DNA from: Catajapyx aquilonaris
Taxonomy: Eukaryota
Direction of reading: 5' to 3'
Assembly (NCBI GenBank): GCA_000934665.2
Contig: JYFJ02001648.1
Span: 1 to 64,000 of the forward strand
DNA length: 64,000 nucleotides
Under the pieces are notes generated by a model that saw nothing but the letters and a program-made list of their open reading frames with translations, was not told where the DNA came from and made no database searches. Positions 1,792-62,610 of this stretch are shown one piece after another. Made by a program: the position numbers and the translations under genes. Every line of letters starts with the position of its first letter. The first letter of the stretch is position 1.

Positions 1792-2067
1792 TATCGTCCC
1801 GGATTGATGAAACCCTGCATGTTTTTTTCACTTGGAACCTTGGGCCTAATCTGCGTCGCTGTCTTGATCGGTGTAGTTGCCATGATGATCGCTGGCTCTG
1901 TAGGAGGAGCAATTATCACTTTCATCATCGTAGGGTCTCTCCTCGCCCTCTCCGCTTACTTCCTCGTGGTCGTCTACTCTCACTACCGGGAGTTGCTAGA
2001 TGGAGGAGGAACAGCTGGAACAGGATACGGAACAGGCGGGACAGCAGTTGCCCCGTCTAACAGCTAA
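1792..2067 (+). CDS. Terminal coding exon (TM3-TM4 plus tail) of 4TM-family paralog A; upstream exons not in the window
   Basis: Acceptor ttttgcag|TAT at 1791/1792; YRPGLMKP...YFLVVVYSHYRELL...PSNS* matches exon 4 of the intact paralogs. Confidence 0.75.
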   Translation, partial: YRPGLMKPCMFFSLGTLGLICVAVLIGVVAMMIAGSVGGAIITFIIVGSLLALSAYFLVVVYSHYRELLDGGGTAGTGYGTGGTAVAPSNS

Positions 2068-3110
2068 AGATTCTGAACATGGCTTATCCGTCACGATCCG
2101 TGCCACGCTGCGCTGTCTATTTGAGATGTCACTGTACTGTATGAAACTCCATACTGTGCGCCGATTGTGCGTGGCAACCGCCGGCCAGGACCAATATTTT
2201 GTGCAAATTATATTCTGTCAAGTATTCCCATCCACACCCGGCCGGTGCACAATGATGGTCGTACTTGCAAAAAATATCCTTCCCATATGACGAGCAGAAA
2301 AATTATTGTATGGTATGCTTCAAATAAAATTAACCAGTGTTGGAATTCATATAGATTGACGTACGCATACTGTTTATCAGTCAACTGCATTCCCACATGA
2401 GCAGGACCACGCAGGCCAACTGGCCAAGAGTAAATGACAATGTATAAGGTGAGACTAGAAGAAGAGTGTTATGATGATAATGATTACAATAGTGTAAAAA
2501 AATGTTCCTAGATTTTACTGTTGGAAGAATTGACAGGTAATCATTTGCATATTAGTGATTTTCAGCCGCATGCCAGTCCAAAAGTGACATTAAAGTGACT
2601 TGTTTGCATATCTTGAAAATAGTTTACAGTTGCATTCATTCATAACATCACGGCATAATCCCAGAAATGGGGTAGCCAGCGACGACTATAGTTTGTGCCT
2701 ATTAGCCGTCTCGTACGACCATTACAACGACTCTTCTGGTGACTGGTCAGGCCACGCTGAAGATATAATGAGTTTGGTGATGATGAAATCGGTGATATGA
2801 ACACATACATACAAATACATAAACATACACTGTAAAATGTTAACAGTATAAACAAAAATATAGAGCAGCTGGAGACTAGGCCGCCCACTGCATCCCCTCA
2901 GCGACGGTGTGTTTGGAACCAGGAGCATTCTTATTGCTTCTCGATATTATTTTCTGGTTGTGTGTTTGCGTCAGTGTGGCATTTCCCGATAATATATTCT
3001 GAACATGTCAGCAGCTTGCAACACCTTTGCTGCCTTGCAGATGTGTGGTGGAGGGGGGGGGGGGGGAGAAGGACGGTTGCTGTGAAGGTGAAGTTAAGNA
3101 GGTGAAGTTA

Positions 3111-3272
3111 AGGTCTATTCTCATATCTGCGAATAGTCGAAAAATCGCGGCGAATTTGGCTTTTCACGCGCGTGCGAATCGCAAGGGGTATTGTTGGCAA
3201 CAATAAATGAAAACACCCATTGCGATTCGCACGCGCGATTTTTCGACAATTCGCAGATATGAGAATGGACCT
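3111..3272. mobile_element. Tourist/PIF-Harbinger-like MITE
   Basis: TIR AGGTCTATTCTCATATCTGCGAATAGTCGAAAAATCGCG versus CGCGATTTTTCGACAATTCGCAGATATGAGAATGGACCT; TTA on both flanks (3108-3110 and 3273-3275). Confidence 0.75.
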
Positions 3273-4104
3273 TTACGCTTCGCAATTATTATTATTTTCC
3301 AATCCAATTTTATTTTTCAATCGGAAACTGTCAAGAGATTTAAGGTGACTAGCCTAGACAGGCCCTGTACCCATCACCATGCTTTATTTCAATAAATATT
3401 CAAATTAATAATATTCAAATTCACATTATGCACACTCAAAATTATTCACGCGTCTTGTTCATCTCTGGATTAGATCTGGTCTACCCCGTGTAGCCTACTC
3501 TTCTTCTTTGGGTTGGCATCAGACGGCACGCAGCTCCCGTCGCTTACTCCAGCCTCTTCCTGCATTGAGCTGTGACAACTTTCGGTCCGCTGCCAGACAG
3601 AAACGGTTGAACTCAGGCAGCAAATCTTCCACCAGAGCCTTCCTCGAACAGGACCATCCCAGTCTTCTAAAAACAAATGTTCGGCCAAGCTCTCCCCTGG
3701 CAGCTGCTATTTCTGGGATATTGCAGCTCCAGATGATAATTATGAGCTGCAGTCTGAACTCCGTCTCCACACTGGCACCGCGCACCATCAGAATCATCCT
3801 GGTTATCATCTATTATGTGATCCCCACCATCTCCGTTGTCCTCTGCATCCCCCACATGATCTCCTCCCAAGTGGAAGCGATGTAGGTAGCTCCGATAAAA
3901 GGCTCATGCCCGGATATAAGCCTGGCCAGGTGCCCGTGGACATGGCGATTCGTCGACACCGCCGGAAAGAACCGCCGGAAACACCAAAATTTCCTCCACA
4001 TCTCCCAACCCTGCTGCCAGGCCTCGCTCCATCTGAGAATCAAAGGCTCGTCTTCTAATGTGGTGAGACGACACAGGCAGGAAGTTAGTGTCGACCCACC
4101 GTAA

Positions 4105-4606: not shown

Positions 4607-5107
4607 TATCGTCCCGGATTGATGAAACCCTGCATGTTTTTTTCCCTTGGAACCTTGAGCCTAATCTGCGTCGCTGTCTTGGTCATTGTAGTTGGCACAA
4701 TGATCGCTGGCTTTGTAGGAGTAGCAATTATCACTTTCATCATCGCAGGGTTTCACGTCGCCCTCTTCGCTTACTTCCTCGTGGTCGTCTACTCTCACTA
4801 CCGGGAGTTGCTAGATGGAGGAGGAACAGCTAGGACAGGATACGTAATGGGGTACGTAAGGCCTGGATACGGAACTGGACCAGGATACGGGCCCGGACCA
4901 GGATACGGAACTGGACCAGGATACGGAACTGGACCAGGATACGGGCCCGGACCAGGATACGGAACTGGACCAGGATACGGAACTGGACCAGGATACGGGC
5001 CCGGACCAGGATACGGGCCTGTACCAGGATACCTAACTGGACCAGGAAACGTAACTGGACCAGGATACGGAACAGACGGGACAGCAGTTGTCCCGTCTAT
5101 GAACTAA
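4607..5107 (+). CDS. Terminal coding exon of 4TM-family paralog B with a (GYG[T/P]GP)n tail; no upstream exons found
   Basis: Acceptor ttttgcag|TAT at 4606/4607; near-identical to exon A; 18-nt tandem repeat at ~4865-5075 in frame; open to TAA at 5107. Confidence 0.7.
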   Translation, partial: YRPGLMKPCMFFSLGTLSLICVAVLVIVVGTMIAGFVGVAIITFIIAGFHVALFAYFLVVVYSHYRELLDGGGTARTGYVMGYVRPGYGTGPGYGPGPGYGTGPGYGTGPGYGPGPGYGTGPGYGTGPGYGPGPGYGPVPGYLTGPGNVTGPGYGTDGTAVVPSMN

Positions 5108-9631: not shown

Positions 9632-10421
9632 ATGGCAATTTTTAATAAGTGTTTCACCATATGCAGTACCCGCACCTGTACCCTTATTCTAGGGATGGAG
9701 GTCTTGGTAAGCTTCACAGTCACGGATGTAAAAAAATAAAGACACATTTAAGTAGTATAGAACGGTATTTTTTTCCATTTTACAGATTGCCTTCCTGATC
9801 CTGGATCTGATAATCATTTACTATCTGGCTTATTGGGAGGATTCAACCCAGAATTGGAGGAAGATGATAGAATCAGAAGGGAGAGACTCATGCGAAATTA
9901 TGAATTGTACGTGTCTTCTGCTATAGGCGCACATCATCTGAAACATTACAAGCGTACCGTACAGTGAAATAATACATAATATTTATTATTATCACCTTCT
10001 AGCCCTGCACACTGGTTTCATAGCTTTTCTGATAGTTTTTCCGGTTATCATCGTGGCAGTATGCATGCTCATCCAGGGAGTACGAAAGGTCGGTCATTTT
10101 ACGAAATAATGAAAGTGTCACAAACCGAATGTTGTGAAAATTTGATCAATAATTTATTGATCCTTGGTTTAATTTCTGCAGTCGCGGCCAGGACTGATGG
10201 TGCCTTTCATATTGCTGCATGCTCTAGTCAACGTCTTGGCTCCGATCGGGTTTCTGGTGCACGTGTTTTCCGGGGAACTTTCGGTCCACACCTTTCTACT
10301 TTTCCTGCTGGGTGTCTCCGGAAGCTTCTACTCATTCCTGGTAGTATACTCTCACTACCAGGAGTTGACTTATGGAGATGGGGCAGCGGAGGCCTGCGTA
10401 CAGGCCAAAAAAGAGTCCTGA
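9632..10421 (+). CDS. 4TM LAPTM/DUF4728-like paralog C
   Basis: Exons 9632-9706, 9786-9906, 10003-10088, 10182-10421; GT-AG, phases 0/1/0, open frame MAIFNKCFTICSTRTCTLILG...LIQGVRK|SRPGLMVP...VVYSHYQEL. Confidence 0.85.
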
Positions 10422-10872: not shown

Positions 10873-11809
10873 ATGTGTTCGTTTTGCATGCCACTCCGTG
10901 ACGCTGTTTTTATTATTGGGATCGGGCAATTGGTAAGCTCTGCCAAGTTGAAGATTGGTATGAAGATTTTTTTTTTTTATTGTACCCCGTTGGGAGTTGA
11001 TTTCCATTAGGGGGGTGGAATTACCACCATTTGGGTGGAACTGGTGTACTGTGTGATAGTACTTAGTGTGTTCCAAGGGTAGGTAGGAGGGGATGTGCAA
11101 AGTGCGTGTGCACAGACGTTGTATTTGCCGTTTTGTGAACTCCCCCGGGTGGCTTATGTGCAAGGATCGCCACCCGAAACGAAGCCAGAGACGGTCTCAC
11201 TCTGCACGAAAGAAGGTGGGAACCCCGGGTGGGGATTGAACCCGGGACCTTAACTTCCGTGGGCGCACGCGTTACCACGGCGCCACTCCGTCTCCCTGAT
11301 TGGTATGAAGATTGACGGTGTTTTATTTTTACAGGGTTACTCCTGATTTTCACTAGTGGCAGGAGTTGTGCTGTTGGTCTTGCTCTATGAAATTGCGGGA
11401 AACACATCTTCTATTACAGGTATTATTGCCCCATAGTTCGATATAGGGCCTACTGTATACCTTAAGAGAAATGCCCTGATGTTTATGAAGTCCAAATACG
11501 TATAGAAATGCTGAGATGCCAATAAGAATGTGTACCGGTATTATTATGCTGGAGGAAGTGACAAAATTAATTATTATGCTTACACCTCAGTGATAAAAAA
11601 TAATGGAAGGAATGTGACAATAATTTAATTCGCTGATTGTCAATCGAAACACATTCTCAGCACCAGCAAGGATAAATTAGCACTTAGCACTAGCATAATA
11701 ATTTCTTTGTCACTTTCAGGTGAACTTACTTTCTTAGGTTTAGGCATCAACATGTATTTGTCTAGCACCTTGATTGGCAGCCGTCTTTCTCATCTGCGCA
11801 TACACACAG
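10873..11809 (+). pseudogene. 4TM-family pseudogene (closest to paralog D)
   Basis: Exon 1 10873-10932; exon 2 11335-11419 has in-frame TGA at 11344 where D has GGA; exon 3 11720-11809 is 90 nt versus 86 (frameshift); no exon 4 found. Confidence 0.7.
10969..11297 (-). mobile_element. Full-length tRNA-derived SINE with poly(A) tail and 16-bp TSD
   Basis: Minus strand: GTGGCGCCGTGG (A box), GGTTCAATCCC (B box), ending AATAAAAAAAAAAA; TSD GATTGGTATGAAGATT at 10953-10968 and 11298-11313. Confidence 0.9.
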
Positions 11810-14289: not shown

Positions 14290-14452
<163 letters not shown>

Positions 14453-14494
14453 TAGTTTCAGGTCCGCCTACAGCAGTAGGCTACTCCAAACACA

Positions 14495-15857
14495 ATGCGA
14501 CTTCCACTTTGCGCACCCAACCTAAGTGCCGCTGTTCTCGATGTTGCGCTCGTGCAATTGGTAAGCTGGCAAGTTGGAGGTATGATATATTATATATACG
14601 ACATATCCAAGTCGACGCTGTTTTATTTTTGCAGATATACTCCGGAGCTGTACTACTGGTGTATTACTTTATAATGCCCATGCTCACTAATGACTATTTG
14701 GGACCAGGAAAAACACCTGGGTGGAGTCCAGGTATTTATTTATTTTGCTCATTTTGCATTTATGTGCGATATACTAACAATGACGAAAAATGGCCTGTTG
14801 TTTCTTAAGTATAACCAAAAGTGCTGAGGCTTGTTATAATGTGCATGCCGAAGGAAGCAACAGGATTCTTACACGTCAGCGAGCCAAAAATAATAATAAT
14901 AAAGGAAGGAGTGTGACAATAATATTATTCTTTATCTGATTGCTAATCGAAACAACTTTTGGTCACCAGCAAGAAATAAATTGGCACTTATAACCACTAA
15001 CATTTTATCTACTTCCAGGTGAATTTATTCTGCACCTTTTTTTTGTTGGCATGTATTTGTGGAACATGGTGGCTGCAACCATTCTCATGTGTGCTCGCTC
15101 AGAGGTCAGTCCATTTCGATAATAAGTAGCCTACTATAAAGAATATTAAAGCAACATCCGACTATACGCCCTCTTTCTGTCAAGCCAATCAGAATAATAA
15201 TAATATATGCGATGAATTCCATAATTAAAATTAAAACCACTCACACAGTCAGTGTTCAGAACTGAGGTGCTGCTTCTAATTTATCACCAGCCATCCCTAT
15301 AAAATAACTACAGTATGTTATTGTCTATTTAGTGTAAGCCTTACTTTCCCTGACCACCATGTAGGTGATCTTCATTCTTCATCTCCGAAAAATGTCTTTT
15401 ATGCAGTATAGGGCAATATGGTGAAGATGAACCACAGTATACTATCAGTAGTTAAAAGTTCAGGGATTCACGCCGCTTTACATTTTTTGCCTTGTCTTTC
15501 TGATCGATAATAATTATTGTTCTTCTTCACTTTCTTCAGAGGCTTCGCCGTCTCCCTCTCGGACAGAACCTGCTGATGACTCATATGGTCATGACAGCGG
15601 CATACATGGTCCTGTGCGTCGTCCTGTTCGTTTGTGAACTCGCCTTTGCCCGACACAAGTTGACATTTAGATTACTCGGCTTGAAAGTTCCCTATTTGGG
15701 AATCGTGGGCAACATCACTAACTTCACTGTCCACTGTTACTGCCTTCTAGTCGTCATCGCCTACTACAAGGAGCAGTGGGTTGCTGTGTCGGACCTAGAT
15801 TCTCAGTCAAACACACAGCAGCAAATCCAACCTGCCATGCAGGGCATTGTTGCTTGA
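14495..15857 (+). CDS. Divergent 4TM paralog D (lacks the N-terminal Cys cluster)
   Basis: Exons 14495-14560, 14635-14731, 15019-15104, 15540-15857; phases 0/1/0; 86-nt exon 3; YCLLVVIAYYKE after TM4. Confidence 0.75.
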
Positions 15858-17000: not shown

Positions 17001-18388
17001 ATGCCGCCACTTCTAAAGTCGTCACTTTGTGGATGTACCAACCTCCGCGCCGGTTCCTTCCTTTTCGGTGTGGCGCACTTGGTAAGCCACAAAAAATAGG
17101 ATAAGATGTTTAAATATAAATATATACGTACATATTCGTATGAAATAGTGATACTCCTTTGTTTTTACAGACTTACTCCATGGTGTCAGCAGTGGTGTTT
17201 GTTATAGTTCCGTTAATATGGACCAGCCTGACCGTGGCTGAGATTGATCCAGGTATTTATTTTGCTCATTATCCGACATACTGTAGTAGGCCCATAAAAA
17301 TTAATGGGATGTTGTGAACAGTGAAATCTGAAATCCAATGTCTCCGGAGATGGAGAACACCTTGCAAAATACGATGTAAGAATCGTATACAAGAATGTGC
17401 CCTCTCATTTGGTTATCGCACTTCCGAAATTGTATAATTAAAATCTAATTATTATCATGTTGTGTTGCTATAAGACAGACACTGATTTTTCATTGTATTG
17501 TTACTACGATCAGGGAGCATATACTACATAAGAGGCGCAAACATTAGATTTCCGCGTCTCTCTATTTGGCGCGTTTCCAAGGCTGGCGGCCATTTTGAAG
17601 TGTGGGCAACGCCAACGAGGTATAGGGTACAGGCAAAAATAGGGTCCGCCATATTTGATTCGCGCGTGTTCTTGACGTGTAGTTGCCATGGCCGCCAAAA
17701 CCATCAAAGATGGCGGACCCTATTTTTGCCTGTACCCTATTTATACCTCGTTGGCGTTGCCCACACTTCAAAATGGCCGCCAGCCTTGGCAAGGGCCCCA
17801 AACAGAGAGACGCGGACATCAACGGCGCCGACTGAAGTTTGTGCCTCTTATGTAGTATAATATTATTCTCCCTGCTACGATATACAAGCGACCAGTGATA
17901 CGTAAATAGACACTCTGCATTTACTTCCAGAACCACTTGGAGTGATTATCCTTGAGGTGATCCTATATCCGACTCACGGTGCGCTAGCAATCCTCCTGTT
18001 ATATGCAATAAGTAAGGTCAGTTATTTTTCGTATCACACCTTTGCCATTAAAGGCCGCGCGTGTCTAGAGGCAGAGAAGCGCTCACATTATTGTATAACA
18101 TTCTTTTCGTTTGCTTAATTTTGGCAGAAGCGTCGTCGCCGACTGATCGTGCCTTACATCGCCCTGACCATAGTAGCACTGATCGTGTCTGTCTTCCTGG
18201 ACTTGACTGATCTGCCACACAATCATTTTGACGACCCTCTTGACAAAATGCTCACCCTGCACCGAGTGCTGAACCTATTATTTGGGATCTCGAGCAGCTA
18301 CTTCTTGCTAATTGTCTACTCGTACTACCAGAAGCTGGTCGAAGGAGACAGCCAGCACGTACAGCTACAAGCAGAAGCCTGCGACTGA
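17001..18388 (+). CDS. 4TM paralog E
   Basis: Exons 17001-17081, 17171-17252, 17931-18016, 18128-18388; MPPLLKSSLCGCTNLRAG...YFLLIVYSYYQKL; MITE in intron 2. Confidence 0.85.
17511..17874. mobile_element. Second copy of the CAGGGAG MITE, inside intron 2 of paralog E
   Basis: Same TIRs as 5755-6206; TSD CTACGAT at 17504-17510 and 17875-17881. Confidence 0.85.
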
Positions 18389-19848: not shown

Positions 19849-20890
19849 ATGATTGGTGTTCCTGAAACGTGTTGCTGTGGTTGCTGGACTACTCGCACTG
19901 GCGTCTTCATCATCGCTGTATTGGAGTTGGTGAGATCCAAAAGCAGTACAAATTGTTTAGAAAGTCTATAAGTAGTTTTTGCTTTTCAGATTGCTGACTT
20001 GATCCTGCTCTTGTGCACTATACTCATGGAGGACCTGGACATTATTCGTAAGTAATTTAATTCGTTTAAAAATAATATTACTGGAAACTTTCAGGCGTGC
20101 TGTGCAATAAAATCTTCTGACATTGCTAAGATTTTAGCTGCTATATATTACATAAATACTGTAAAATAATTGAAACATCCTTACAACCTTACCTCAGAAC
20201 ATCGTAAAAACACCATAACAATAATTATTTACTTTCAGAATTTATTCTTCAAATAGTAGTTCCTTCGGTGAGCTTCGTGGCCATAGTCGTGCTTATCACT
20301 GGAACCATAATGGTCAGTACATTTCGCTTACATAAACCTGATCGAACCTCCCCAAGCATAAACATATTAATTTTGAAGACTTGAAAATGCAAAGCATGGA
20401 ATTTTCTCGACATTGAGTTAGTGTTAGCAAGAGCTGGTGTTAGTCATTGCTTAATGCAGTTCATTACACGTACCATCTGGCCAATTATCAGAATAGGCTT
20501 CCATTTTTCTATCAGTGAGATATTGACTTGATCGAAATTCACTGCAGTGTCTCTGCTAATAATATTAATTCGTTAAAAAAATATGTACATCTTTTGCAGA
20601 GAATACCTTGGCTGTTGCTTCCCCACCTGGTTATTGCGCTTGTCAACTGCGGGTTTCGTGGTTACTCTCTCCTGTCCCACCAGTTCCTCCCTCAAAGCAT
20701 CTTGTTCAAGGTTCTGTCCTGCACGTTCGGGTCTGTAATCACCCTGTACTTATGGCTGGTCGTCTTTTCTCATTTCCTGGATCTGCGCGATGAAAAAAGA
20801 GGCGTCATTGCTCGAAGGCATCGCAGGATGACCCTACTCAGGTCTTCAGTTGTTGTCGACATGTTCAATTCTCCTTTTAAGAAGGTTTGA
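19849..20890 (+). CDS. 4TM paralog F
   Basis: Exons 19849-19929, 19990-20047, 20239-20312, 20600-20890; MIGVPETCCCGCWTTRTGVFII...YLWLVVFSHFLDL. Confidence 0.85.
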
Positions 20891-33385: not shown

Positions 33386-33392
<7 letters not shown>

Positions 33393-44630: not shown

Positions 44631-45566
44631 ATGCCGACTGTCAAGACCTGCTGTCTGGCTTGTTCCACCAGGACTGGCTCAGTCTGCATTGCCATCGTCA
44701 ATGTGGTACGTTTATTAATAACTTGTCGCATGACTCGATTCATTTGCTTGTGAATAACCGTCGGAAATGATTGGCAGGTGGTGTCTCTGTTCATAGCGGT
44801 TGCCGGAAGCATCTACCTGGCTGTTGTCATCTCTCACAGGGACTTGGAGAGGAAATATTACCACTTCATAGCCTGTGCGTAATAGCCCTTGGTTTAACCC
44901 CAAATATGCATTGTTCAACTTTTAAATCATTTTTGAAATGAGCAAATTGAGCAAATGTTCACGTGTCCTATATACGTAGGACTCTAGGCATATCTGGGTT
45001 TTAATGACTATTTGCGCATAATTTATTTTGGGCGCCTAATAATCAATGTCATGGTGAATCAAATCAGTGAGGATGAGAGCCGAATTGAAGGCCGATAGTT
45101 AAATTATGCACGTGTTTGATCGATTCTTACGCAATACTTTTTCTTCCATTTCGATTCAGCCCTGCTGATAGGCCTGACCATCGTTGTGTCTTCTCTTGTC
45201 TACGTAGCCCTGGCATCGCTTATGATTCATGGAATTCGCAAGGTACGTAAGCTTTCCTGGCACCTGATGACCTTAGACAGCAAAATCAGTAGTGATATGT
45301 CACCATCCAATTTTCAGGAGAGATGTCGCTTGATGCTTCCCTGGCTCGTGGTTCAAATCGCCTTGACCTTGCTGTCACCTTTTTCGTTCACATTGTTATT
45401 TGGACCCGGATTCGAGGTGATACGGCCACTTGGGATCTCCGCTGTTGTCCTTCACGTTTATTTCCTGATTGTCGTGTATTCTTGTTACGAAGAGCTGAGG
45501 ATCAGAAAGAAACTTGTGAAGGGGTCTGTAGCGCCGGCTGATACCCCTTGGGAGGTGATGGCATGA
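44631..45566 (+). CDS. 4TM paralog P
   Basis: Exons 44631-44705, 44778-44874, 45160-45242, 45318-45566; MPTVKTCCLACSTRTG...MIHGIRK|ERCRLMLPW...YFLIVVYSCYEEL. Confidence 0.9.
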
Positions 45567-48502: not shown

Positions 48503-50048
48503 ATGGAGAAGTGTTGCTGCCGTTGGTCTCTGCGGTTTGGATCCATCATTTGGGGATGGTTGTCTCTGGTGAGTTTGCACAATTACCAACACTGGTTGTC
48601 ATGGGGAAAGCGGAAGAGATTGGCTTACCGACCCTTTCCTGTTGTAGCATCATGCAATGTGGCGGCCCAATCGCATGGAGTGACGCCAACTTTCAAAATT
48701 CTGACCTCATCCTATAAGGGAAGGGGGAAAAGGTTCAAAAATGACATAACTCATTTCTGTTGCAGATGATTGGTGTCCTGGGAGTCATAGTGTGTGCTGT
48801 CACCCTGGCCCAATGGAACGGTCACAGACAGGACATCGTGACCAGATATCCCGATTCGCCAAAAGTACCCGATTGTATGAGAGTTTTTTAACCTCGACTG
48901 TTCAATGTTTTGATGCTTTAAAAAGCTCATTTATTCAGTACTGCATGGTCATTGTAAAGGCAACGAGACGGCATGTTTGCATGCTTCAAATTTTATTGCA
49001 TGCAATCAGCACGTGTGGAAAAATTGTGTTTTTAAAAAAATGACATGTGCAGGCTGGTTGCCAATATGCAAATGCGATGTTGAGAAAGTCTTGGAAGATG
49101 ACTCGTCTTAATGTGCTTAGGCTTATTCCCGCCGCATTTCTTAAAAATGACGAAATTTGACTTCCGTTAAGTCCTTCCCCGTATGCTGTAATCCGGATAA
49201 TCTTTTATTTTTTATTTTTTTGGCAGTCACCCTGGGAGTGGTCATCACTTTCCTGCTATTCCAAGCGGGACGCGCCTTCTTTGCTTCGTTGCTCTTGGTC
49301 GGAATATACAAGGTCGGTATAACAACACAATGGAAATCTAATCTCTCAAACGGATGTGCAGTACAGGGTGTTCCAATTCCTCCAGTTCAATTGTTGTTCA
49401 GCCCAGAAACCCTGCTTGAAAATGGGCAAAGAGTGAACAGTATTTCGTCTTTGTATAATAAAATCATTTTTTTTATTTTATAGCGACGATTTACTTGTAT
49501 ATTCTTATCCTTATCTGCGTAAACTAATCATACAACTGAATCAATAAAATATGACAAAATTGAACTTAATGAAATTGTCTAAATAAATTCCACTCGTAAA
49601 TTCATCCATTAAACTAATTTATAAATTCATAAAATTCATTCGTTAAACTAATTTATTAGTAATTTTAATAACAGGGCTAATCGTCTAATTAATGAGGCTA
49701 TAAATAATTTTTTTGCATTTCTCACGATTTTTGGACAATTTTTTTTTCTTTTATATTTTGCAGGAATTGCCTAGACTGATGTTCCCGTTCCTGATATTCA
49801 CAATATTTAGCGTCCTCCATGTGTTCACGACCTTGTTGTCCACGGTGGACTTGGCTGTGACCTTTCCGGAGGTGGTGGTGATTGACCTGGTGGGTTCAAT
49901 AGCCATGATCAGCGCCGAGATTTACTGCGGATTGGCGGTAAAAGCATTTTACAGGGAACTCCGACGGAAAAAGAGGAAGGAACTTGAAGGATCAAAATTC
50001 GAAGAAATTGAAGACGACGACGACGACGAAGAGGAGGAAGTGGAATAG
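48503..50048 (+). CDS. 4TM paralog Q with a basic-then-acidic tail
   Basis: Exons 48503-48568, 48766-48874, 49227-49312, 49764-50048; MEKCCCRWSLRFG...FYRELRRKKRK...EDDDDDEEEEVE. Confidence 0.85.
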
Positions 50049-50654: not shown

Positions 50655-53028
50655 ATGGTCATCAGGAACAATCCGTTCAGGAGGGTGCACCACTCCGGAT
50701 GCCCTCCGAGGGAAAGTGCGGAAGTGGCTGCCGCTATTTCTCTGGTGAGTAAAGATCAAGTTGGTCACAATTCGGTGGTGATTAGCAAAAAAAGCTGCAT
50801 CTTCAACAAGAAAGTATTGCAAACTGGGCTCTGATTAACGTTAAGTACGCAAAAAAAAATCTCATTTGACTAAATGCGACTAAATGCTTTGATGTGAAAG
50901 GCTGCGTGCTTTCCCAGCACGCTACCAAGTATTAGGACACCCACTTGATTAACTCCATTCGTAATGAAGCGCCTCGTAACTATAGCCAGGTGAATTACTA
51001 ACATAGAAATTCATTCCAACATTTTGGATATGGGTTGGAACATTTTAATCGGCCTTGGTCACAAAAGTGCGCGCGGTTTTGTATACGTATAGAAATCATC
51101 ACAGATTGGTAAAGAGCCTGATTAGGTACATTTTGTGCAAATTATAAATGGGAAAATTCGATTGCAAAATAATCTACATGATGTGCCGCGATCAAAAATA
51201 AGCTTGAAAAATAGTGCTCTAATTGCCTTTAAAATTATACAAATTATTTTGTTATGCTTGGACGTTAATACAAATGAATCCGCAATAGAATTTATGCGAT
51301 TACCAGTTTCCATCATATTTACTGAAATTTAATTAATAATTCCAAATTAATTTTTGTTATTAATAACTAATTTAAAATTTGTGGATTAACTCTGCCCAAA
51401 TATGACGTATAAATTAAATTAAATTTCGTCAGATTCCAGTTATCTCTAGGCAAACGTGTAGTTGGATGGAGAGAAAAAGAACTGCAAAAAATTGAGGAGA
51501 CGATTTGCGTATGTGCACTGGCGCCACCTTAATCTGCGATGTATTTTTTTGCTTGCAGACTTTGTCCATTTTGGGTACATATGGCGCCTTCCAGCAGCTC
51601 TTGGAGTGGGGAAATAAGCAGACCCAGCATCCGGATCAGGAAATGGTGCCAGGTAATTAAAAATGAACCGAGTCATCGTTCAGAGATTATTGGAGTGAAT
51701 AATAAACAGTGTACACACACACATGTACAAATCATATCTTTGCTACTTGTGTGTAGCCACTTATCGTGCCCTTCAACTTATTCGCTACTAACTTGTTCCG
51801 GATTTATATCTCTTATCAGCATGACCCAGATAAGCTAGTTTCTTCCAGTTCAAATGAGAAGTTAATGCAGTAATGTTATTACAGGGGAATTGGAGGGAAG
51901 ATTAACTCTTCTACTCATACCCATCCTCTACTTTTTCACATGCTGCTGTCTCATACACGGAATCAAGAAGGTAAGTCACTCCACGATGACATTATAGTTT
52001 GTCAGTAATAGTTGGTTGCATTTTGGGATGTAGATGATAATGGCCAGTAATTGTTTTCTGACTTTTTGAAAATTAGTAGCAACTACATTATCACAAATCC
52101 ACATGTAAACCTACAAGTACAAGCTTCACTATTTTAACATTAAGCACAATTTGTAACAAAAAAATACCTTTCTGAAGGTACAAAAATGCATCTGTAAAGA
52201 GTCTAATATTTTATGGATGTTACTAATCAATTACATATTTGTATAAGTAGATTTAATGTGGATTATTCCATATTTTTTTAAGCACACGGCTCAAATTTAT
52301 CTCAAAATTATTTACTATATCGCCACATCCACTGACATAATCTGCCCAGCAACAGTGGCACCCATCATCCTGCCTAATGAAGCAAATTTTTAAGCCCCTC
52401 TTTAATTATACGAGCCGCCAGCTGGGATAATCACACTGATACTTTTTACATCATTATGCACGTTCATATCGGCCAACGACAGGAGGGTGAGAAGGTACTG
52501 ATTGTCCACCTCAGCAACCAGTTTAGAGAAAAGCAATTGGGCTCATGATGAAAATGGTTGCTGGCACAGACAATCCATACCGTTTATACCTAATTTGTAA
52601 TTAAATTTTAAACATCTGATTTGTTGTTGTGTTCCTAATTATTTTTATTATTAGTTGTTAATTTTTTTTGGTCATTATTAATATTGTTGTCTCTCTTTTT
52701 TGGGGGTGATCAGGAGGAGAGATGGTACCTGATCCCTTACGTGGTGGCCAACGTGATGGGAGTGGCCACCTTCTTAGGAGCGGTGGTCACCTCGAAGATC
52801 TTCCTGCATTTCCTCATGACCAACGTGACAGTGACCCTCCTACTTCTGGTCACCGTCGGAGTCATCTTCTACCTGACCCTGGTGGTCCTCTCTTACTTTT
52901 TTGAACTCCAAATCAGAGAAAACTCTCCACTCCTTCCGCAGAGGAGGCCTTTGCTGGTCATCGGCTCGGACAATTCGGTATCCAGAGTGGCCAAATCTAT
53001 CGCCGGACTATCAGAGGGCTCAGTGTGA
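50655..53028 (+). CDS. Divergent 4TM paralog R
   Basis: Exons 50655-50744 (least certain), 51559-51652, 51885-51970, 52714-53028; CLIHGIKK|EERWYLIPY...YLTLVVLSYFFEL. Confidence 0.75.
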
Positions 53029-55348: not shown

Positions 55349-56828
55349 ATGGCAGTCATCCTGGATAATTTCCTCGGATTTTACTCCATTAAAACCGGAG
55401 CCATATTTTCCGGATTCTTCTGGCTGGTATGTGGAACTCTATAGTGATAAATTTGTGGCGTTGCAAGTGACATACTTTTTTTATGTGTCTAACATCAGGT
55501 GTTCGGATGGTTTGCGCTCAATACCACCACCAGCATAAGTATGTGGCATGCCATCTACGCAGTCACTCCAGCACATCAAAATGGTATTTATGACTCGATT
55601 TTCTTATGTGTACAGATTGTGTAATAATTTACCCCGGAAGAAACCGTTATGTCAAGTCTGGAAGGTCGTATAGCTCGACAAAGCTCGTTGACCTACAAAA
55701 ATTGAGCGGAGGAATAAACATGGGATTGTAAATAAATGCGGCGTAATATATAGTTTGTGGTATGCAAACATGGTGCCCAGACCGATGAAGGAAGCGTCTG
55801 TTGTGTTGCGTAAAGTTCTGTAGATGTCAGCAGGCTGACCTCAGTCACATTCATAAAAAAAAAAACAACAGCACGTGCCTTGTACTCAACCACTTCCAAT
55901 GATTCCAATTGCATCTGTGTCTATCATTGATAGCCTGTCATTGTTGCTATAACTAACAATCCTGTCGATAGTTATGGGGCCAAGTCCGTGCGGAATAATT
56001 AAATTAGCGACGGATTACAAAACGGAAAACGTGTTTTAAGGCCAACTTCTGCGAATTTGAACCGGCCTTGGCGTAATACATTTTTTTCTCTCTTCTCATT
56101 ACATAATGAGGAGTGAAGGGGTGGCTTGGTTAGAAGGAAGGGTTATTGAAGCTCCATAGGAAATACATTATTCGAAGCTCTCCTGTCACACACATGCTCG
56201 TTGTTAAAATGTGTAGAAAGTGGTATGACGCATGACAGCTTTCACAAGCATCAATCACACCATAGGCAATGTTGGGTACGTAATATTAATGCGACTTTTT
56301 TTTCTTCTTCCTTACAGCTGATTTTTGGATACATTTTGTGCTGGCCCTGTACTTTGCCGGATTGAGCATCAGTTCGGTTCTAACCCTGATTGGTGTTAAG
56401 AAGGTAAAAAAAATCAGTAAAATATTTTACGCTCAAAGAGGTAGAATTTATTTTTTATTTATTTTGATGTTCACTCTTGAATTGTTAATTGTTAACGAGA
56501 CATGATGTAATTTTTTTTAGAAAATACGATAGCATGCACACAATGCTCTTATACAAATTTCATATCGTAACTGTGATTATTTCAGGACAAGCCTCGCTTT
56601 CTGATAGCATTCCTGGTCTACATGGTGCTCAACTCGTTGCTAATCCTGGTCGGCACAATAGTCGACTTTGCCATAGACAGTTTCCATCCGTTCACTCTGT
56701 GTTTAGAACTGAACGGTATGGCTCTTCACGTGTACACATTTCTGATAGTCTTCGCTCATTACTATCAGCTCCGACGATTCGGAGCATCCGACGGTGTCCA
56801 GATGGTGACAAGAACGCCAGAAGCATAA
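55349..56828 (+). CDS. 4TM paralog S (Cys-less NFLGFY subfamily)
   Basis: Exons 55349-55426, 55499-55583, 56318-56403, 56586-56828; MAVILDNFLGFYSIKTG...LIGVKK|DKPRFLIAF...IVFAHYYQL. Confidence 0.85.
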
Positions 56829-57185: not shown

Positions 57186-58119
57186 ATGGTGCTACAAAAT
57201 TTCTTGGGGTTTTACACCCTGAGAGATGGGACCATAATCAGCGCTCTTATTGTTGGGGTGAGTGTATCGATTACTTCTCAAATCAGTGTACCAAATTGGT
57301 TGAAATCAAAAGTCAAATATTCAAAATACATGCGACATCGCCAAAATAATGAGGGATCCAGTAGATACAATATGTCAAAAAAAAGTTTCTGACAAATCTT
57401 TCCTGGCACGAACATCAGCACTCAACCAAGGTGAAGGTTATGACGATAAAATTATTAAAAATATGCCCCAACAATTTTTGCATTCAACCAATCAATGCTC
57501 TCCCATTGTATATATACAAAACATAGTAACTGATATACTTGCAGATATGTAGCATGTACTACCTGCAATATTTTGTGAGCAAGTCTGTCATATACCTCAC
57601 ATCCGGAGCACCCGTTTACGCCCGTCCAGGTAAATAAACTTGTTACTTAGCCGGTCTAGATGATTTAAAAACCATGTTTTTTTTCAGGTGTGGAGACCAT
57701 ATTCCATGACAACTTTTGGGTTTCCGTCCTGTCATCTCTATACCTAGGAGCCTTGTTCGGAAGCTCACTTGCTGTGCTTTTTGGAATTAAAAAGGTTGGT
57801 TCAACAATGCTCGCAATATTGAGTTCGTGACTTGATACTTTTTTTTCTATAGGAAAGGATGAAGTACCTGGTGGCCTTTATGGTGCTTCTGATCGTCAAC
57901 GACCTTCTGGTCATCATATTCATGGTGCTCCACATCGTCCGATATGGATTCCATCTCCCGGTCTTCTTCCTGTACGCAGACGTCATCTTGGTCAACTCGT
58001 ACTTCTGCTTCGTGGCTTATTCATTCTCTTACGTCACCGGACACCCACACTCTGTCGCTGCTGTTGCTGATGTTGCTGGGCGTAGAAGTAATAAGAATGA
58101 AACTTCTCATCCGGTTTAG
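57186..58119 (+). CDS. 4TM paralog T (Cys-less NFLGFY subfamily)
   Basis: Exons 57186-57257, 57545-57629, 57688-57794, 57853-58119; MVLQNFLGFYTLRDGTII...FGIKK|ERMKYLVAF...YFCFVAYS. Confidence 0.85.
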
Positions 58120-60510: not shown

Positions 60511-60630
60511 TATATACGCCAAATTGTTTCATACCCCCGGGGTATGAAACAATTTGTCGTACAGCACTATACCTAGGTATACGACAAATTGTTTCATACC
60601 CCGGGGGTATGAAACAATTTGGCGTATATA
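60511..60630. repeat. 120-bp nested palindrome (probable MITE remnant)
   Basis: Two ~47-bp arms that are reverse complements of each other, each arm itself a hairpin (AAATTGTTTCATACCCC..GGGGTATGAAACAATTT); TA-rich flanks. Confidence 0.85.
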
Positions 60631-61802
60631 GTACTTGTGCAATATCAGGAAGTCTTTTGGCACAAGAGCTTTACTACGTGTAATCCAGTAATTTATAGCA
60701 TTTTCCAACTTATCATAATGTTTATCTTTCTTATAATCCTATCTGACATTATGTAAGCTTTTGGTGCGATAACAACTTTTCCATATAGCGCTTAAATTCC
60801 TAGTCTTAATTTAATTTTCATACTTCGATATTTCCCACTATCTACAAAATTCATCAAGGATATCTAAGAAAATGAGAAAAACCGCATAAAACCTTGAACA
60901 TAACCTTGTGCGTGATTATTTAAAGTTACAATAATATCCGAGGCTTCTCCAAACCCGATATATTCCAAAAGCTGTTTGAAGTGACAAGTTCTGCCTTATA
61001 ATCATGATGACACGCAAGCATGAATAACCCGGCAGTACTGATAAAATTGTACAAAAAAATAAATTGCCTCGTCGGTTTTGAGCGCATCCAACAACTCAAC
61101 CGACACAATGTGCAACCAGTCATAACTTACATCTTCCTCCACCAAGCTCATCAAACTAGTTCTTTTGAAAGTGACATCTCATTAGAAAGCAGCGTTTTGC
61201 AGGAAGCATGTCGCCTGAGCAGGAAACTTATTTGGGAACCGGCACGCAATTTTTTCTCTCAACATTATTAAAGCATAGTTTATAACCGCATTTCATCGAT
61301 TCAACACCGACTCTCTATGATGACCCAATTGCATCAAATATAAAGCGCGTAGTATACTTGTCTTTTAATTGTAAGTTATGCTTATATGAGGCACACAGTC
61401 ATATGGTACTGTACTTCTCATGGGTATTGTTTATGATGTCAGGATCCAGCTGCGAAAAAAACATTCATGATCAGCATGTATTTTTGCTTCTCTATTGCTC
61501 TACATGCTCTAGATTGCATACACCTGAGCTAGGACTCATTACAGGTACATGTATATCACCCTGATCAGCCTTGAATCCCCGATCAAATTCCCACGAGAAA
61601 GAAAATCCTCTTTGAATATTCCGCCACTTTGCTTGCATGCGCATCTGGCAAAAGCCTCTCTCTGATTGGTCGACCCGATTGTTGAGCCATCCTCATCTCC
61701 TCAACCTCTTCTCACAAATCGAGGTCACTAGCAACTTACAAGAGTCTACCCAGAGAATCCGATCCACAGGTTGTGCTGAAGAATCACTCGAAACGACCAA
61801 AC

Positions 61803-62610
61803 ATGGTTCTGAAAACGTGCCTTGGACTGTTCTCCCTTCGAGGGGGAACAATATTCGCTGGATTTATGGCTGCGGTATGTACTAATTCCATTTATTAAAA
61901 AAATGTAAGTGACATTTGGGTGTACACTCTTTGCAGCTGTCAGGCATGTACGTTTTTCAAATGTGTGTCAGCATCATTGCGGCTGTTGCTATGCACCAAG
62001 GATCCAGCTCATCAGGTATTTGTTTTTAATATATTATACCGGCATACCATGCATAATACGAGTGTGTCCTTGACGCCATATTTTTGTTGACCCTGAAAAT
62101 GGCTTGATTGCGCAGAAAATACCGCGCGATTTTTTTCAATACCTTACTATCCCTTTCACTGCTGAAGATACATTCCAATTCGTTTGCTAACCTACTAACC
62201 CCAAAAACAGGACCGTTCTGGTTTTTGCTGTCTGTGACCTTTTACGCCGCTGGACTGTTCCTCAGCTCCGTTTTGGCCCTGGTTGGAGTCCATAAGGTAC
62301 AGTCTGCTACATGTGAAGGAGAAAGCAACTTGTCTATATTGGGTGTGTCCACAATTTTGTGTTTCAGAATCGTCCAAGACGTCTGGTTCCTTTCCTGGTG
62401 TTCCTGGTGCTGAACGTGATCTTGATCGTGGCCTTCTTCATCTTCATAACAGTCCACGCCACATTCGTGTCCATCTACTTCTTCTACACAATTGACGGGG
62501 TGGTGTCCAACGTGTACTTCTTCTTCGTGGTCTACGCCTACGCTTGTCACGTTCGTCGCACAGGAGGAGACGAGGGAGTGGCAATGACCAACAATGCTCA
62601 TCGTGTTTAG
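61803..62610 (+). CDS. 4TM paralog U
   Basis: Exons 61803-61874, 61937-62015, 62211-62296, 62368-62610; MVLKTCLGLFSLRGGTIF...LVGVHK|NRPRRLVPF...YFFFVVYAY. Confidence 0.85.

What the first reader, a model, noticed from the sequence alone, without database searches (positions are those of the whole stretch)
1792..62610. Large co-oriented tandem array (19 intact genes plus at least 7 fragments) of small, highly divergent four-transmembrane proteins: a candidate receptor or effector repertoire
Seen: every reconstructable gene in 64 kb belongs to one family, all on +, with intron phases 0/1/0 and an 86-nt exon 3 (or equivalent) in 15 of 19 genes. The ORF track shows only scattered exon pieces. Known: the Cys cluster/RxG, LLIHGVxK-RPxLMxP and VVYSxYxEL motifs resemble LAPTM4/Mtp and DUF4728-like proteins; vertebrates have only three LAPTM genes. 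Inference: an expansion this large, with a conserved scaffold and variable loops, resembles birth-and-death repertoires such as the mammalian MS4A 4TM cluster. It may be an undescribed chemosensory, immune or lysosomal-transport repertoire.
Basis: partly seen in the sequence, partly recalled or inferred. Interest (0 to 1): 0.88.

Follow-up and report, generated by a model that had tools for sequence, protein, structure and literature searches.

The report
Tandem array of pasiflora-like tetraspan genes
This stretch of an animal genome is filled with about twenty same-direction copies of a small four-helix membrane protein gene from the little-studied DUF4728 / pasiflora family, so it is a real but fairly ordinary tandem expansion of a known family.

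Summary
I found 21 family-type last exons, all on the + strand. From them I rebuilt 16 complete genes of 146-220 aa, with canonical GT..AG introns in phases 0/1/0. Five further copies are partial, and there are a few loose fragments.

Spliced contigs of one public run match all three coding introns of one gene and two of three in another.

The family is Pfam DUF4728 (with DUF7027):
- 30 of the 35 best outside relatives pass Pfam's DUF4728 cut-off.
- A profile built only from such relatives scores all 16 models at 49-151 bits, against 5 bits or less for shuffles.

The N-terminal Cys cluster, the P-aromatic start of TM3 and the VxSxYQEL end of TM4 are the published pasiflora-family motifs (PMC4582180). 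In Drosophila these are septate-junction tetraspans.

LAPTM membership is not met. The receptor or immune reading has no support beyond a fast-evolving first loop.

The array mixes old paralogs (24-36% identity) with a younger ~3-kb-unit burst (63-70%).

Verdict: a new member of a known kind, of modest interest.

The parts
1792..2067 (+). g1792: family last exon only (TM3-TM4 and tail); partial copy
   Evidence: Exon-4 HMM 73.3 bits. No exons 1-3 found upstream. 93.5% identical at DNA level to 4555-4847.
4607..5107 (+). g4607: family last exon only, with a long Pro-Gly-Tyr-Gly-rich repeat tail; partial copy, twin of g1792
   Evidence: Exon-4 HMM 74.0 bits. No exons 1-3 found. ORF translation.
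9632..10421 (+). g10182: complete 4-exon gene, 173 aa (exons 9632-9706, 9786-9906, 10003-10088, 10182-10421)
   Evidence: 83.9 bits against the outside DUF4728 profile.
10873..10932 (+). Orphan exon-1-like piece, possibly the first exon of g15540 separated by inserted DNA
   Evidence: Exon-1 HMM 31.9 bits. No coherent model links it to 15540.
15540..15857 (+). g15540: divergent last exon; partial or broken copy
   Evidence: Exon-4 HMM 57.0 bits. Best full models score only about 41 bits and lack TM2.
17001..18388 (+). g18131: complete 4-exon gene, 168 aa (17001-17081, 17171-17252, 17931-18016, 18131-18388)
   Evidence: 81.6 bits. The start of exon 3 is near-tied with 17910.
19849..20890 (+). 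g20600: complete 4-exon gene, 167 aa (19849-19929, 19990-20047, 20239-20312, 20600-20890); exon 3 is 74 nt
   Evidence: 65.9 bits.
21307..22419 (+). g22186: complete 4-exon gene, 146 aa (21307-21384, 21510-21567, 21743-21813, 22186-22419); exon 3 is 71 nt
   Evidence: 57.5 bits.
23333..24243 (+). g24010: complete gene, 171 aa (23333-23407, 23477-23597, 23805-23890, 24010-24243); young clade
   Evidence: 139 bits. Clade support 99.
26469..27361 (+). g27128: complete gene, 171 aa (26469-26543, 26613-26733, 26934-27019, 27128-27361); young clade
   Evidence: 151.1 bits. An error-free contig of run X1 covers 27157-27417.
29446..30465 (+). g30082: complete gene, 220 aa with a 70-residue tail (29446-29520, 29586-29703, 29887-29972, 30082-30465); young clade
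   Evidence: 131.2 bits.
30808..30996 (+). Loose last-exon-like fragment outside any model
   Evidence: tblastn E 9e-5, 37% identity to g22186 residues 80-144.
32102..33087 (+). g32800: complete gene, 193 aa (32102-32188, 32256-32376, 32578-32663, 32800-33087); young clade
   Evidence: 135.8 bits.
34314..34658 (+). Alternative non-coding 5' exons spliced to 35175, upstream of the g35996 start codon
   Evidence: Joints 34598>35175 and 34658>35175, both GT..AG, in X1 contigs.
35199..36199 (+). g35996: complete gene, 160 aa (35199-35273, 35337-35454, 35704-35789, 35996-36199)
   Evidence: X1 joints 35273>35337 and 35789>35996 match introns 1 and 3. 112 bits.
36894..37699 (+). g37514: complete four-TM gene, 153 aa, ending right after the YQEL motif (36894-36968, 37031-37145, 37245-37330, 37514-37699)
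   Evidence: The tail-homologous DNA at 37702-37758 lies past the stop; the ORF table shows it in another frame.
37962..38116 (+). Non-coding 5' exon of g39800, spliced to about 39087
   Evidence: X1 contig of 1618 nt with 0 mismatches; joint 38116>39087, GT..AG.
39113..40033 (+). g39800: reference gene, 171 aa (39113-39187, 39264-39384, 39621-39706, 39800-40033); 3' UTR runs to about 40953
   Evidence: Read by eye and spliced. All three coding introns are matched by X1 joints. 146.5 bits.
43049..44024 (+). g43791: complete 3-exon gene, 184 aa, with exons 1 and 2 fused (43049-43283, 43635-43720, 43791-44024)
   Evidence: 108.5 bits.
44631..45566 (+). g45318: complete gene, 167 aa (44631-44705, 44778-44874, 45160-45242, 45318-45566); exon 3 is 83 nt
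   Evidence: 74.9 bits.
48503..50048 (+). g49764: complete gene, 181 aa with an acidic tail (48503-48568, 48766-48874, 49227-49312, 49764-50048); has a 67%-identical outside relative, P0056
   Evidence: 97.8 bits.
51559..53028 (+). g52714: exons 2-4 recognisable (51559-51652, 51885-51970, 52714-53028); no family-type exon 1 found; partial
55349..56828 (+). g56586: complete gene, 163 aa, without the Cys cluster (55349-55426, 55499-55583, 56318-56403, 56586-56828)
   Evidence: 49.2 bits.
57186..58119 (+). g57853: exon 1 (from 57186), an exon-3-like piece ending at 57794 and the last exon 57853-58119; no convincing exon 2; partial or doubtful
   Evidence: Best models score only about 40 bits.
61803..62610 (+). 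g62368: complete gene, 172 aa, without the Cys cluster (61803-61874, 61944-62061, 62211-62296, 62368-62610)
   Evidence: 58.8 bits. Exon 2/3 boundaries are near-tied with an alternative.

Best explanation
The window holds a head-to-tail array of independently transcribed paralogous genes of the DUF4728 / DUF7027 ('pasiflora / fire exit / Ikebana') family of small tetraspan membrane proteins.

Each gene has its own upstream non-coding exon and, typically, four coding exons. It encodes a compact four-helix membrane bundle of about 170 aa.

Protein layout:
- The N-terminus, the short basic TM2-TM3 loop and the C-tail face the cytosol.
- An N-terminal Cys cluster is probably palmitoylated (inferred).
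- A 1-37-residue first loop and a 6-residue second loop face outward.

How the array grew:
- Repeated unequal crossing-over acted over a long time.
- Deep paralogs (24-36% identity) sit beside a younger burst of about 3-kb units (63-70% identity, dS about 0.3-0.5).
- Several copies are decaying.

Function, by analogy with Drosophila Pasiflora1/2 (core septate-junction components) and tetraspanin-type folds: I take the products to be cis-acting membrane scaffolds. They would pack against partner membrane proteins (junctional, adhesion or trafficked cargo) and set their localisation or mobility. Paralogs would be tuned to different tissues or partners, mainly through the first loop and the tail.

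Shown here: gene structure, splicing of two genes, family membership, fold and topology of a close relative, and duplication pattern.

Inferred: palmitoylation, scaffold function and sub-functionalisation.
For: Structure and strand bias: 21 last exons and 16 complete ORFs, all on +.

Splicing: X1 contigs reproduce introns 39187>39264, 39384>39621 and 39706>39800, plus a 5' exon joint 38116>39087. For the neighbouring gene they reproduce 35273>35337 and 35789>35996. All are GT..AG.

Family:
- Window last-exon pieces reach 26.4 and 25.4 bits on DUF4728 against a cut-off of 26.7.
- A profile of the 21 last exons finds 353 proteins at E<=1e-3 among 1.84 billion.
- 30 of the top 35 pass the DUF4728 cut-off, and 5 of 35 also pass DUF7027.
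- A profile built from 27 such outside proteins scores the 16 spliced models at 49-151 bits, against 5.0 or less for 20 shuffles each.
- The language-model look-up of relative P0001 gives DUF4728/DUF7027 clusters at 0.93-0.94.

Motifs: the family consensus has CCCC..L.TG, LLLPWL and YF.LVV.S.Y.EL. The paper defining the pasiflora family names a PW motif at the start of TM3 and VxSQYQ at the end of TM4 (PMC4582180, passages). Its supplement shows N-terminal CCC..R.G and C-terminal SQYQEL..GRG in Pasiflora1 orthologues. CG15098/Ikebana is described as carrying Mtp and DUF4728 domains and as belonging to that family (10.1101/2024.04.13.589362, passages).

Fold: the AlphaFold2 model of P0001 (43-47% identical to most core genes) has pLDDT 92.5 and pTM 0.81, with four long helices. 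The best full-length structural matches are Kei1 (Z 11.2) and tetraspanins Tspan15 (11.2), CD53 (10.3) and CD9 (10.1).

Topology: the TM2-TM3 loop has 47 K+R against 4 D+E over the 16 genes. The N-terminus has 27 against 4. Loop 1 is net acidic, 38 against 52.

History: direct repeats with a period of about 2.7-3.1 kb include upstream non-coding DNA. Identities are, the tree, and pN/pS is 0.63 overall.
Against: - No window protein could be scored directly against Pfam as a spliced sequence. The contiguous pieces all fall just below the DUF4728 cut-off.
- The strict pasiflora motifs are only partly kept: PW in 3 of 16 models (P-aromatic in 14 of 16), and VxSxYQ in 9 of 16, with His where Pasiflora1 has Gln (read by eye).
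- No sequence named pasiflora was retrieved by any search. Named relatives are all 'uncharacterized' or 'DUF7027 domain-containing' arthropod proteins.
- The structural Z-scores lie in the range that helical bundles reach by arrangement alone (note). Foldseek found nothing at E<=1e-3.
- The fold model is of a relative, not of a window protein.
- The kind of run X1 is not on record. I infer that it is RNA from its GT..AG joints.
- Function is by analogy only. Seven of the nine fly family members have no established function, and one (Ikebana) is linked to cell competition rather than junctions.
Confidence: 0.7

Rival explanations
1. A diversifying surface repertoire (chemosensory, immune or self/non-self), analogous to the mammalian MS4A cluster. 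Paralogs would present different first loops to ligands or pathogens.
For: - Large tandem expansion with gene birth and death.
- Loop 1 has pooled pN/pS 1.21, and exceeds 1 in 5 of 6 pairs of the young clade. The N-terminus is at 0.31 and the TM2-TM3 loop at 0.29.
- A weak structural resemblance to the Fc-epsilon-RI beta chain, which I recall is an MS4A protein (TM-score 0.42, E about 1).
Against: - The exposed surface is minute: loop 1 is 1-37 residues (1-2 in two genes) and loop 2 is 6 residues.
- Only 2 of 16 models have any N-x-S/T site.
- The pN/pS estimate rests on about 25 codons, with no significance test. A value near 1 fits relaxed constraint equally well.
- No MS4A/CD20 Pfam hit appears among the 35 relatives or the window pieces.
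- The known family members are junction or scaffold proteins (PMC4582180).
- There are no tissue data.
Confidence: 0.12
2. LAPTM-like endolysosomal adaptors. The proteins would sit in late endosomes or lysosomes and recruit ubiquitin ligases or transporters, as LAPTM4A/4B/5 do.
For: - Weak Mtp (PF03821) similarity in 4 of 35 relatives (16.1-23.0 bits) and in one window piece (9.7 bits).
- A LAPTM4A cluster appears at 0.88 in the language-model look-up.
- Ikebana is said to resemble LAPTM4A.
- The conserved YQEL-type ending fits the Y-x-x-hydrophobic sorting pattern in 11 of 16 tails as listed. That this pattern is a sorting signal is my recollection.
Against: - Mtp never reaches its cut-off of 25.2 bits.
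- 0 of 16 models have an [LP]PxY motif. I recall these motifs as the Nedd4-binding feature of LAPTMs.
- The tyrosine lies only a few residues from the hydrophobic core of TM4.
- Pasiflora proteins were seen at the plasma membrane.
Confidence: 0.1
3. A largely dead array: most copies are unexpressed pseudogenes or relics, and the open frames persist by chance or recent origin.
For: - 5 of 21 copies are partial, and there are loose fragments.
- g37514 has lost its tail.
- Overall pN/pS of 0.41-0.82 in the young clade is high for a constrained membrane protein.
- Transcript evidence exists for only three genes, within the 20 kb that was laid.
Against: - 16 ORFs of 146-220 aa are intact, with canonical splice sites across copies that are only 24-36% identical. 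That cannot persist without selection.
- pN/pS is about 0.3 at the N-terminus and the TM2-TM3 loop.
- Spliced transcripts exist for two genes, and contig cover for a third.
Confidence: 0.05

Closest known systems
Pasiflora family of tetraspan proteins (Drosophila Pasiflora1/CG7713, Pasiflora2/CG8121, Fire exit, CG15098/Ikebana and five others; Deligiannaki et al. 2015, PMC4582180)
   Same: - About 160-200 aa with four TM helices and N and C termini inside.
- N-terminal Cys-rich stretch followed by R/K-x-G.
- Pro-aromatic at the start of TM3.
- V-x-S-x-Y-Q-(E-L) at the end of TM4, followed in many copies by an acidic/basic 'DR(D)GR'-like stretch, as in the non-arthropod Pasiflora1 orthologues printed in the paper's supplement.
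   Different: - 21 copies in one 64-kb array, against nine members in the fly. I did not look up where the fly members lie.
- His replaces Gln in the VxSQYQ motif.
- Strict PW in only 3 of 16 models.
- No functional or localisation data.
- No direct sequence comparison with fly proteins could be run here.
Pfam DUF4728 (PF15860) and DUF7027 (PF22954)
   Same: Outside relatives pass the curated cut-offs: DUF4728 in 30 of 35 and DUF7027 in 5 of 35. All 16 spliced models match a profile of such members at 49-151 bits.
   Different: Window pieces that can be submitted unspliced stay just under the cut-off, at best 26.4 against 26.7.
LAPTM4A/4B/5 (Pfam Mtp, PF03821)
   Same: Small four-TM proteins. 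There is weak sub-threshold profile similarity. One fly family member is annotated with both Mtp and DUF4728.
   Different: There is no score at or above the Mtp cut-off, no PY motifs (0 of 16) and no evidence for lysosomal residence.
Tetraspanins (CD9, CD53, CD81, Tspan15, uroplakin 1B)
   Same: The four-helix transmembrane bundle superposes at Z 10.1-11.2 over 136-145 residues. There are weak profile hits to UPK1B (E 7e-4) and CD81.
   Different: There is no large second extracellular domain; the TM3-TM4 loop is 6 residues. The Pfam Tetraspanin score stays below its cut-off, at best 23.3 against 32.1.
Mammalian MS4A gene cluster
   Same: A tandem cluster of small four-TM paralogs with birth-and-death dynamics.
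   Different: There is no sequence relationship (no Pfam hit). The loops are much smaller, and no sensory or immune expression is known.

Membership tests
Pfam DUF4728 (PF15860) | Score at or above the curated gathering cut-off (26.7 bits) | tested here: inconclusive
   Only unspliced window pieces could be submitted. 6 of 10 family pieces hit DUF4728, at best 26.4 and 25.4 bits, all below 26.7. The pieces lack exon 3, which supplies the first part of the profile.
Pfam DUF4728 (PF15860) | Homology to proteins that do pass the cut-off | tested here: met
   30 of the 35 best outside relatives pass. A profile of 27 of them scores the 16 spliced models at 49.2-151.1 bits, against 5.0 or less for 320 shuffles and 1.2 or less for reversed sequences.
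Pasiflora family (PMC4582180) | Four TM helices, similar length, N and C termini intracellular | tested here: met
   AlphaFold2 model of relative P0001: four long helices, pLDDT 92.5. Charge distribution over the 16 models: TM2-TM3 loop 47 K+R against 4 D+E, N-terminus 27 against 4. Lengths are 146-220 aa. The hydropathy scan was noisy for g56586 and g62368, where TM1 was not called.
Pasiflora family (PMC4582180) | PW motif at the beginning of TM3 | tested here: inconclusive
   Strict PW occurs in 3 of 16 models (g20600, g43791, g45318). Pro followed by F, Y or W occurs in 14 of 16. It is absent in g22186 and g56586 (and reading of the models). The consensus of 85 outside relatives is LLLPWL.
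Pasiflora family (PMC4582180) | VxSQYQ motif at the TM4/C-tail boundary (Pasiflora1 type) | tested here: inconclusive
   V-x-S-x-Y-Q occurs in 9 of 16 models, always with H or Y where Pasiflora1 has Q. Weaker variants occur in the rest.
Pasiflora family (PMC4582180) | Septate-junction localisation and requirement for barrier function | not testable with these tools
   This needs imaging and genetics in the source animal.
LAPTM / Mtp (PF03821) | Score at or above the Mtp cut-off (25.2 bits) | tested here: not met
   Window piece 45120-45566 scores 9.7 bits. Relatives reach at best 23.0 bits, and 4 of 35 have any hit.
LAPTM / Mtp (PF03821) | C-terminal PY ([LP]PxY) motifs that bind Nedd4-type ligases (feature recalled, not from a call) | tested here: not met
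   0 of 16 models contain [LP]PxY anywhere.
Tetraspanin (PF00335) | Large second extracellular loop with conserved cysteines (feature recalled) and a Pfam score of 32.1 bits or more | tested here: not met
   The TM3-TM4 loop is 6 residues in all 16 models. The best Tetraspanin score among relatives is 23.3 bits.
MS4A / CD20-like | Sequence match to the family profile | tested here: not met
   No such family is listed for the 11 window pieces at E<=1 or for the 35 relatives at E<=0.01.

The most novel reading that the evidence does not exclude
The younger sub-cluster (about 23-40 kb, seven genes) is a fast-diversifying set of pasiflora-like tetraspans. Their acidic first loop would be under positive selection to match changing extracellular partners. 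For example, each could tune a different junction or adhesion complex, or could act as an entry or attachment target that pathogens chase. That would make this junction-scaffold family a variable cell-surface repertoire in this lineage.
Probability: 0.12. Interest if true: 0.65.

Novelty: new member of a known kind. Interest (0 to 1): 0.35.

Why it matters
The DUF4728 / pasiflora family is conserved across animals, but it has been studied functionally only in flies: two septate-junction components and one cell-competition modifier. I found no paper on its expansion in any animal.

An array of about 20 paralogs gives several things:
- A natural series of variants. It shows which positions the scaffold cannot change (the Cys cluster, the basic TM2-TM3 loop, the P-aromatic motif and V-x-S-x-Y-Q-E-L) and which are free (the first loop and the tail).
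- A sign that the family can undergo birth-and-death evolution.
- Better gene models. The exon pieces are too small for ORF-based callers, and three multi-copy 'proteins' in public collections (P0002, P0012, P0037) look like mis-fused arrays of the same kind in other species.

Tried and rejected
- Whole-genome access: no genome is held for this window. I could not extend the array past the window edges or count other family members.
- First word-based protein search with a window piece (exon 3, in-frame intron, exon 4): 47 candidates, none significant.
- RNA runs: no RNA holder is listed. One run of unrecorded kind (X1) holds 21% of the sampled words. Bins without cover are not evidence of silence.
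- The listing of cluster members did not complete because the database was switched off. The origin of P0001 and P0056 remains unknown beyond 'Logan contig' for P0001.
- Foldseek against PDB: no match at E<=1e-3.
- Upstream exons of g1792, g4607 and g15540, and exon 1 of g52714: exon HMMs run against all + strand ORF pieces found nothing above about 6 bits. An exhaustive splice enumeration for g57853 gave only about 40-bit models without a TM1 continuation.
- Other genes in the window: 16 further long ORFs on both strands gave no Pfam family at E<=0.01. ORF 12503-13114 gave no meaningful hit. There were no Rfam matches.
- Earlier findings of this scan: none on this genome, none by sequence, and only unrelated bacterial or archaeal tetraspan arrays by words.
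- Third protein search, with the 85-sequence profile: it returned only 8 proteins, all uncharacterised arthropod entries and none named pasiflora.
- Direct alignment with Drosophila pasiflora proteins: not done. The only source was a paper supplement, and such letters are not accepted by the tools. I compared short motifs by eye instead.

Full report
WHAT IS THERE

The window is eukaryotic DNA with about 40% G+C. Stop-to-stop ORFs on the + strand repeatedly end in a hydrophobic stretch followed by a VVYSHYQEL-like motif.

I read one copy base by base. It has four coding exons with GT..AG introns:
- 39113-39187
- 39264-39384
- 39621-39706 (86 nt)
- 39800-40033

Spliced, these give a 171-aa protein.

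Simple motif searches are strongly strand-specific. Counts on + versus - are 15 vs 1, 8 vs 0, 14 vs 2 and 16 vs 1 for the four motifs.

Iterated exon-specific HMMs were run over all splice-compatible + strand candidates. They found:
- 23 last-exon hits, of which two are exon-3 read-throughs, leaving 21 true last exons
- 19 first-exon hits, one of them weak
- 13 third-exon hits, one of them weak
- 8 second-exon hits, one of them spurious

GENE MODELS

Eight 'core' genes assemble directly.

For the divergent copies I enumerated every open combination of AG..GT exons between the first and last exon. I did not fix phases. I ranked the combinations by a family HMM plus a crude splice score. This gave eight more complete genes.

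In total there are 16 intact ORFs of 146-220 aa.
- All 15 four-exon models have intron phases 0/1/0.
- g43791 has exons 1 and 2 fused.
- Exon 3 is 86 nt in 13 of 16. In g18131 and g62368 I preferred the 86-nt alternative over a slightly higher-scoring near-tie.

Five copies are partial:
- g1792 and g4607 show only the last exon.
- g15540 has a last exon and perhaps a distant first exon at 10873.
- g52714 lacks a recognisable first exon.
- g57853 lacks a convincing second exon.

tblastn with the 16 models found 227 HSPs, all on +. It found two further pieces: a last-exon fragment at 30808-30996, and the tail of g37514 at 37702-37758 past its stop.

My count is therefore 16 complete plus 5 partial plus about 3 fragments.

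TRANSCRIPTS

No run on record as RNA holds the region. One run of unrecorded kind (X1) does.

Laid on 23200-43100, its contigs skip exactly my introns.
- For g39800: 39187>39264, 39384>39621 and 39706>39800. These lie in a 1618-nt contig with no mismatches. That contig also joins a non-coding exon (37962-38116) to about 39087 and runs on to 40953.
- For g35996: 35273>35337 and 35789>35996, plus two alternative 5' exons joined to 35175.
- For g27128: an error-free contig covers the last exon.

All joints are GT..AG, so I take X1 to be spliced RNA.

FAMILY

Unspliced window pieces hit Pfam DUF4728 just below its cut-off, at best 26.4 and 25.4 bits against 26.7. DUF7027 and Mtp appear as faint traces.

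A profile of the 21 last exons (A1) was searched against 1.84 billion representatives. It found 353 proteins at E<=1e-3 and 5 at E<=1e-10. Most are 150-220 aa and match in their C-terminal half.

Of the 35 best that I scanned:
- 30 pass the DUF4728 cut-off.
- 5 also pass DUF7027.
- 4 show sub-threshold Mtp.

A profile built only from 27 single-domain proteins that pass the cut-off scores my 16 spliced models at 49-151 bits. Shuffled versions reach 5.0 at most.

Named relatives are uncharacterised proteins of decapod crustaceans and Hemiptera. The language-model look-up also points to DUF4728/DUF7027 clusters, commonest in Arthropoda.

LINK TO THE PASIFLORA FAMILY

The Ikebana preprint (passages read) describes CG15098 as carrying Mtp and DUF4728 domains. 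It places CG15098 in the 'tetraspanin-pasiflora' family of Deligiannaki et al. 2015.

That paper (passages; supplement passages) defines the family as follows:
- four TM helices
- a PW motif at the start of TM3
- VxSQYQ at the end of TM4
- nine members in Drosophila
- Pasiflora1 orthologues in molluscs, echinoderms and hemichordates

The orthologue sequences printed in the supplement begin with a Cys cluster followed by R-x-G. They end TM4 with SQYQEL followed by a GRG-type stretch.

The consensus of 85 outside relatives of the window genes has the same three landmarks. So do most window genes:
- Cys cluster plus R-x-G in 13 of 16
- Pro-aromatic at the TM3 start in 14 of 16 (strict PW in 3)
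- V-x-S-x-Y-Q in 9 of 16

I could not align fly proteins directly. The link is therefore by domain annotation and motifs.

FOLD AND TOPOLOGY

P0001 is a 172-aa relative, 36-47% identical to the seven core genes. Folded with the 85-sequence alignment, it gives a confident model with pLDDT 92.5 and pTM 0.81. The model has four long helices and a short helix in the first loop.

Foldseek found nothing significant.

The exhaustive aligner ranks these first among full-length matches:
- Kei1: Z 11.2, 138 residues, rmsd 2.9
- Tspan15: Z 11.2
- CD53: Z 10.3
- CD9: Z 10.1

These values are suggestive but lie within the range helical bundles can reach by chance.

A PDB sequence-profile search gives only weak tetraspanin hits: UPK1B at E 7e-4 and CD81 at 0.058.

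Charges fit an N-in/C-in topology over the 16 models:
- TM2-TM3 loop: 47 K+R against 4 D+E
- N-terminus: 27 against 4
- Loop 1: net acidic, 38 against 52

Loop 1 is 1-37 residues and loop 2 is 6.

EVOLUTION OF THE ARRAY

Self-comparison gives 51 direct and 2 inverted repeat pairs. The genes at 23.3, 26.4, 29.4 and 32.1 kb share about 1.5-kb blocks at 72-74% DNA identity. These blocks include introns and about 600 bp upstream. The repeat unit is therefore about 2.7-3.1 kb with its own 5' region.

Protein identities:
- 63-70% within that four-gene clade
- about 45-53% to g35996, g37514 and g39800
- 24-36% among the remaining copies

In a quick maximum-likelihood tree of 101 rows the window genes are not one clade. 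The tree needs 8 label changes, and at least 2 are forced by strongly supported branches. g49764 pairs with P0056 at support 99, and the two are 67% identical. The four-gene clade has support 99.

The origins of the outside proteins are unknown, so this shows deep paralogy rather than dated events.

Nei-Gojobori estimates in the young clade:
- dS 0.27-0.50
- pN/pS 0.63 overall
- 1.21 in loop 1 (above 1 in 5 of 6 pairs)
- 0.31 at the N-terminus
- 0.29 in the TM2-TM3 loop

Each region has only about 8-25 codons and no test was applied.

INTERPRETATION

The simplest reading is a birth-and-death tandem expansion of a known tetraspan family. Its characterised members organise membrane complexes in cis.

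I commit to a scaffold or organiser role, with paralogs specialised by tissue or partner. I mark this as inference.

The LAPTM reading fails its two testable features: the Mtp cut-off and the PY motifs.

The receptor-repertoire reading is not excluded. It rests only on copy number and a noisy loop-1 signal, and it sits badly with the tiny exposed surface.

A dead array is unlikely, given 16 intact, canonically spliced ORFs among copies this diverged.

NOVELTY

The family is catalogued in Pfam and described in print.

Full-text searches found no paper on an expansion of it. The terms searched were:
- DUF4728
- pasiflora, septate junction and fire exit
- LAPTM4, pasiflora, tetraspan, tandem and expansion
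- the Pfam and InterPro accessions and DUF7027
- pasiflora alone

Supplements of bioRxiv preprints could not be seen.

Public collections hold multi-copy 'proteins' with 5, 4 and 3 family units: P0002, P0012 and P0037. This suggests that same-strand arrays exist in other species too.

I rate this as a new member of a known kind, of modest interest.

Noticed in passing
window 4834-5090 (tail of g4607) versus 2020-2067 (tail of g1792): The two nearly identical last exons (93.5% DNA identity) differ in their tails. g4607 carries a long run of Pro-Gly-Tyr-Gly-Thr/Pro-Gly repeats that its twin lacks.
   Followed up: no
window 1347-1640, 1728-1790, 4560-4600, 14280-14480: Long trinucleotide microsatellites read as poly-Asp, poly-Met, poly-Ile or poly-Asn in different frames. 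Two of them lie immediately upstream of the orphan last exons g1792 and g4607.
   Followed up: no
window 12503-13114 (+): A 203-aa ORF unrelated to the family lies between the orphan first exon at 10873 and the last exon at 15540. It has no meaningful Pfam hit. From memory it resembles the C-terminal part of invertebrate LINE-type elements, so it may be an insertion that broke g15540.
   Followed up: partly
window 5754-6197 versus 17510-17859: Dispersed repeat copies at 76-89% identity, in both direct and inverted orientation. These are the only inverted pairs in the self-comparison, and probably a transposable element.
   Followed up: no
window 2-622 versus 559-1192: A tandem duplication of about 560 bp at 84% identity at the left edge of the window. 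Its ORFs have no Pfam match.
   Followed up: partly
window 37514-37758: g37514 stops right after the YQEL motif, yet DNA homologous to the g39800 tail continues past the stop; the ORF table shows it in another frame. This is a tail-less copy or an early step of decay.
   Followed up: partly
window 35636-36325 (-): A 229-aa open frame lies antisense to exons 3-4 of g35996. It was not scanned. It is probably a by-product of the sense strand's codon make-up.
   Followed up: no
proteins P0002 (899 aa), P0012 (895 aa), P0037 (507 aa): These public 'proteins' carry 5, 4 and 3 family units in one chain. They are most likely gene models fused across same-strand tandem arrays in other species.
   Followed up: partly
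C-terminal motif of the family (e.g. window 39959-39985): The conserved ending (YQEL, YQKL, YEEL, YREL) fits the Y-x-x-hydrophobic pattern of tyrosine-based sorting signals in 11 of 16 tails as listed. The fly and other orthologues printed in PMC4582180's supplement have YQEL, YQIF or YQVF at the same place. Whether it acts as a sorting signal is untested.
   Followed up: partly
window 3099: A single N, the only ambiguous base in the window.
   Followed up: no
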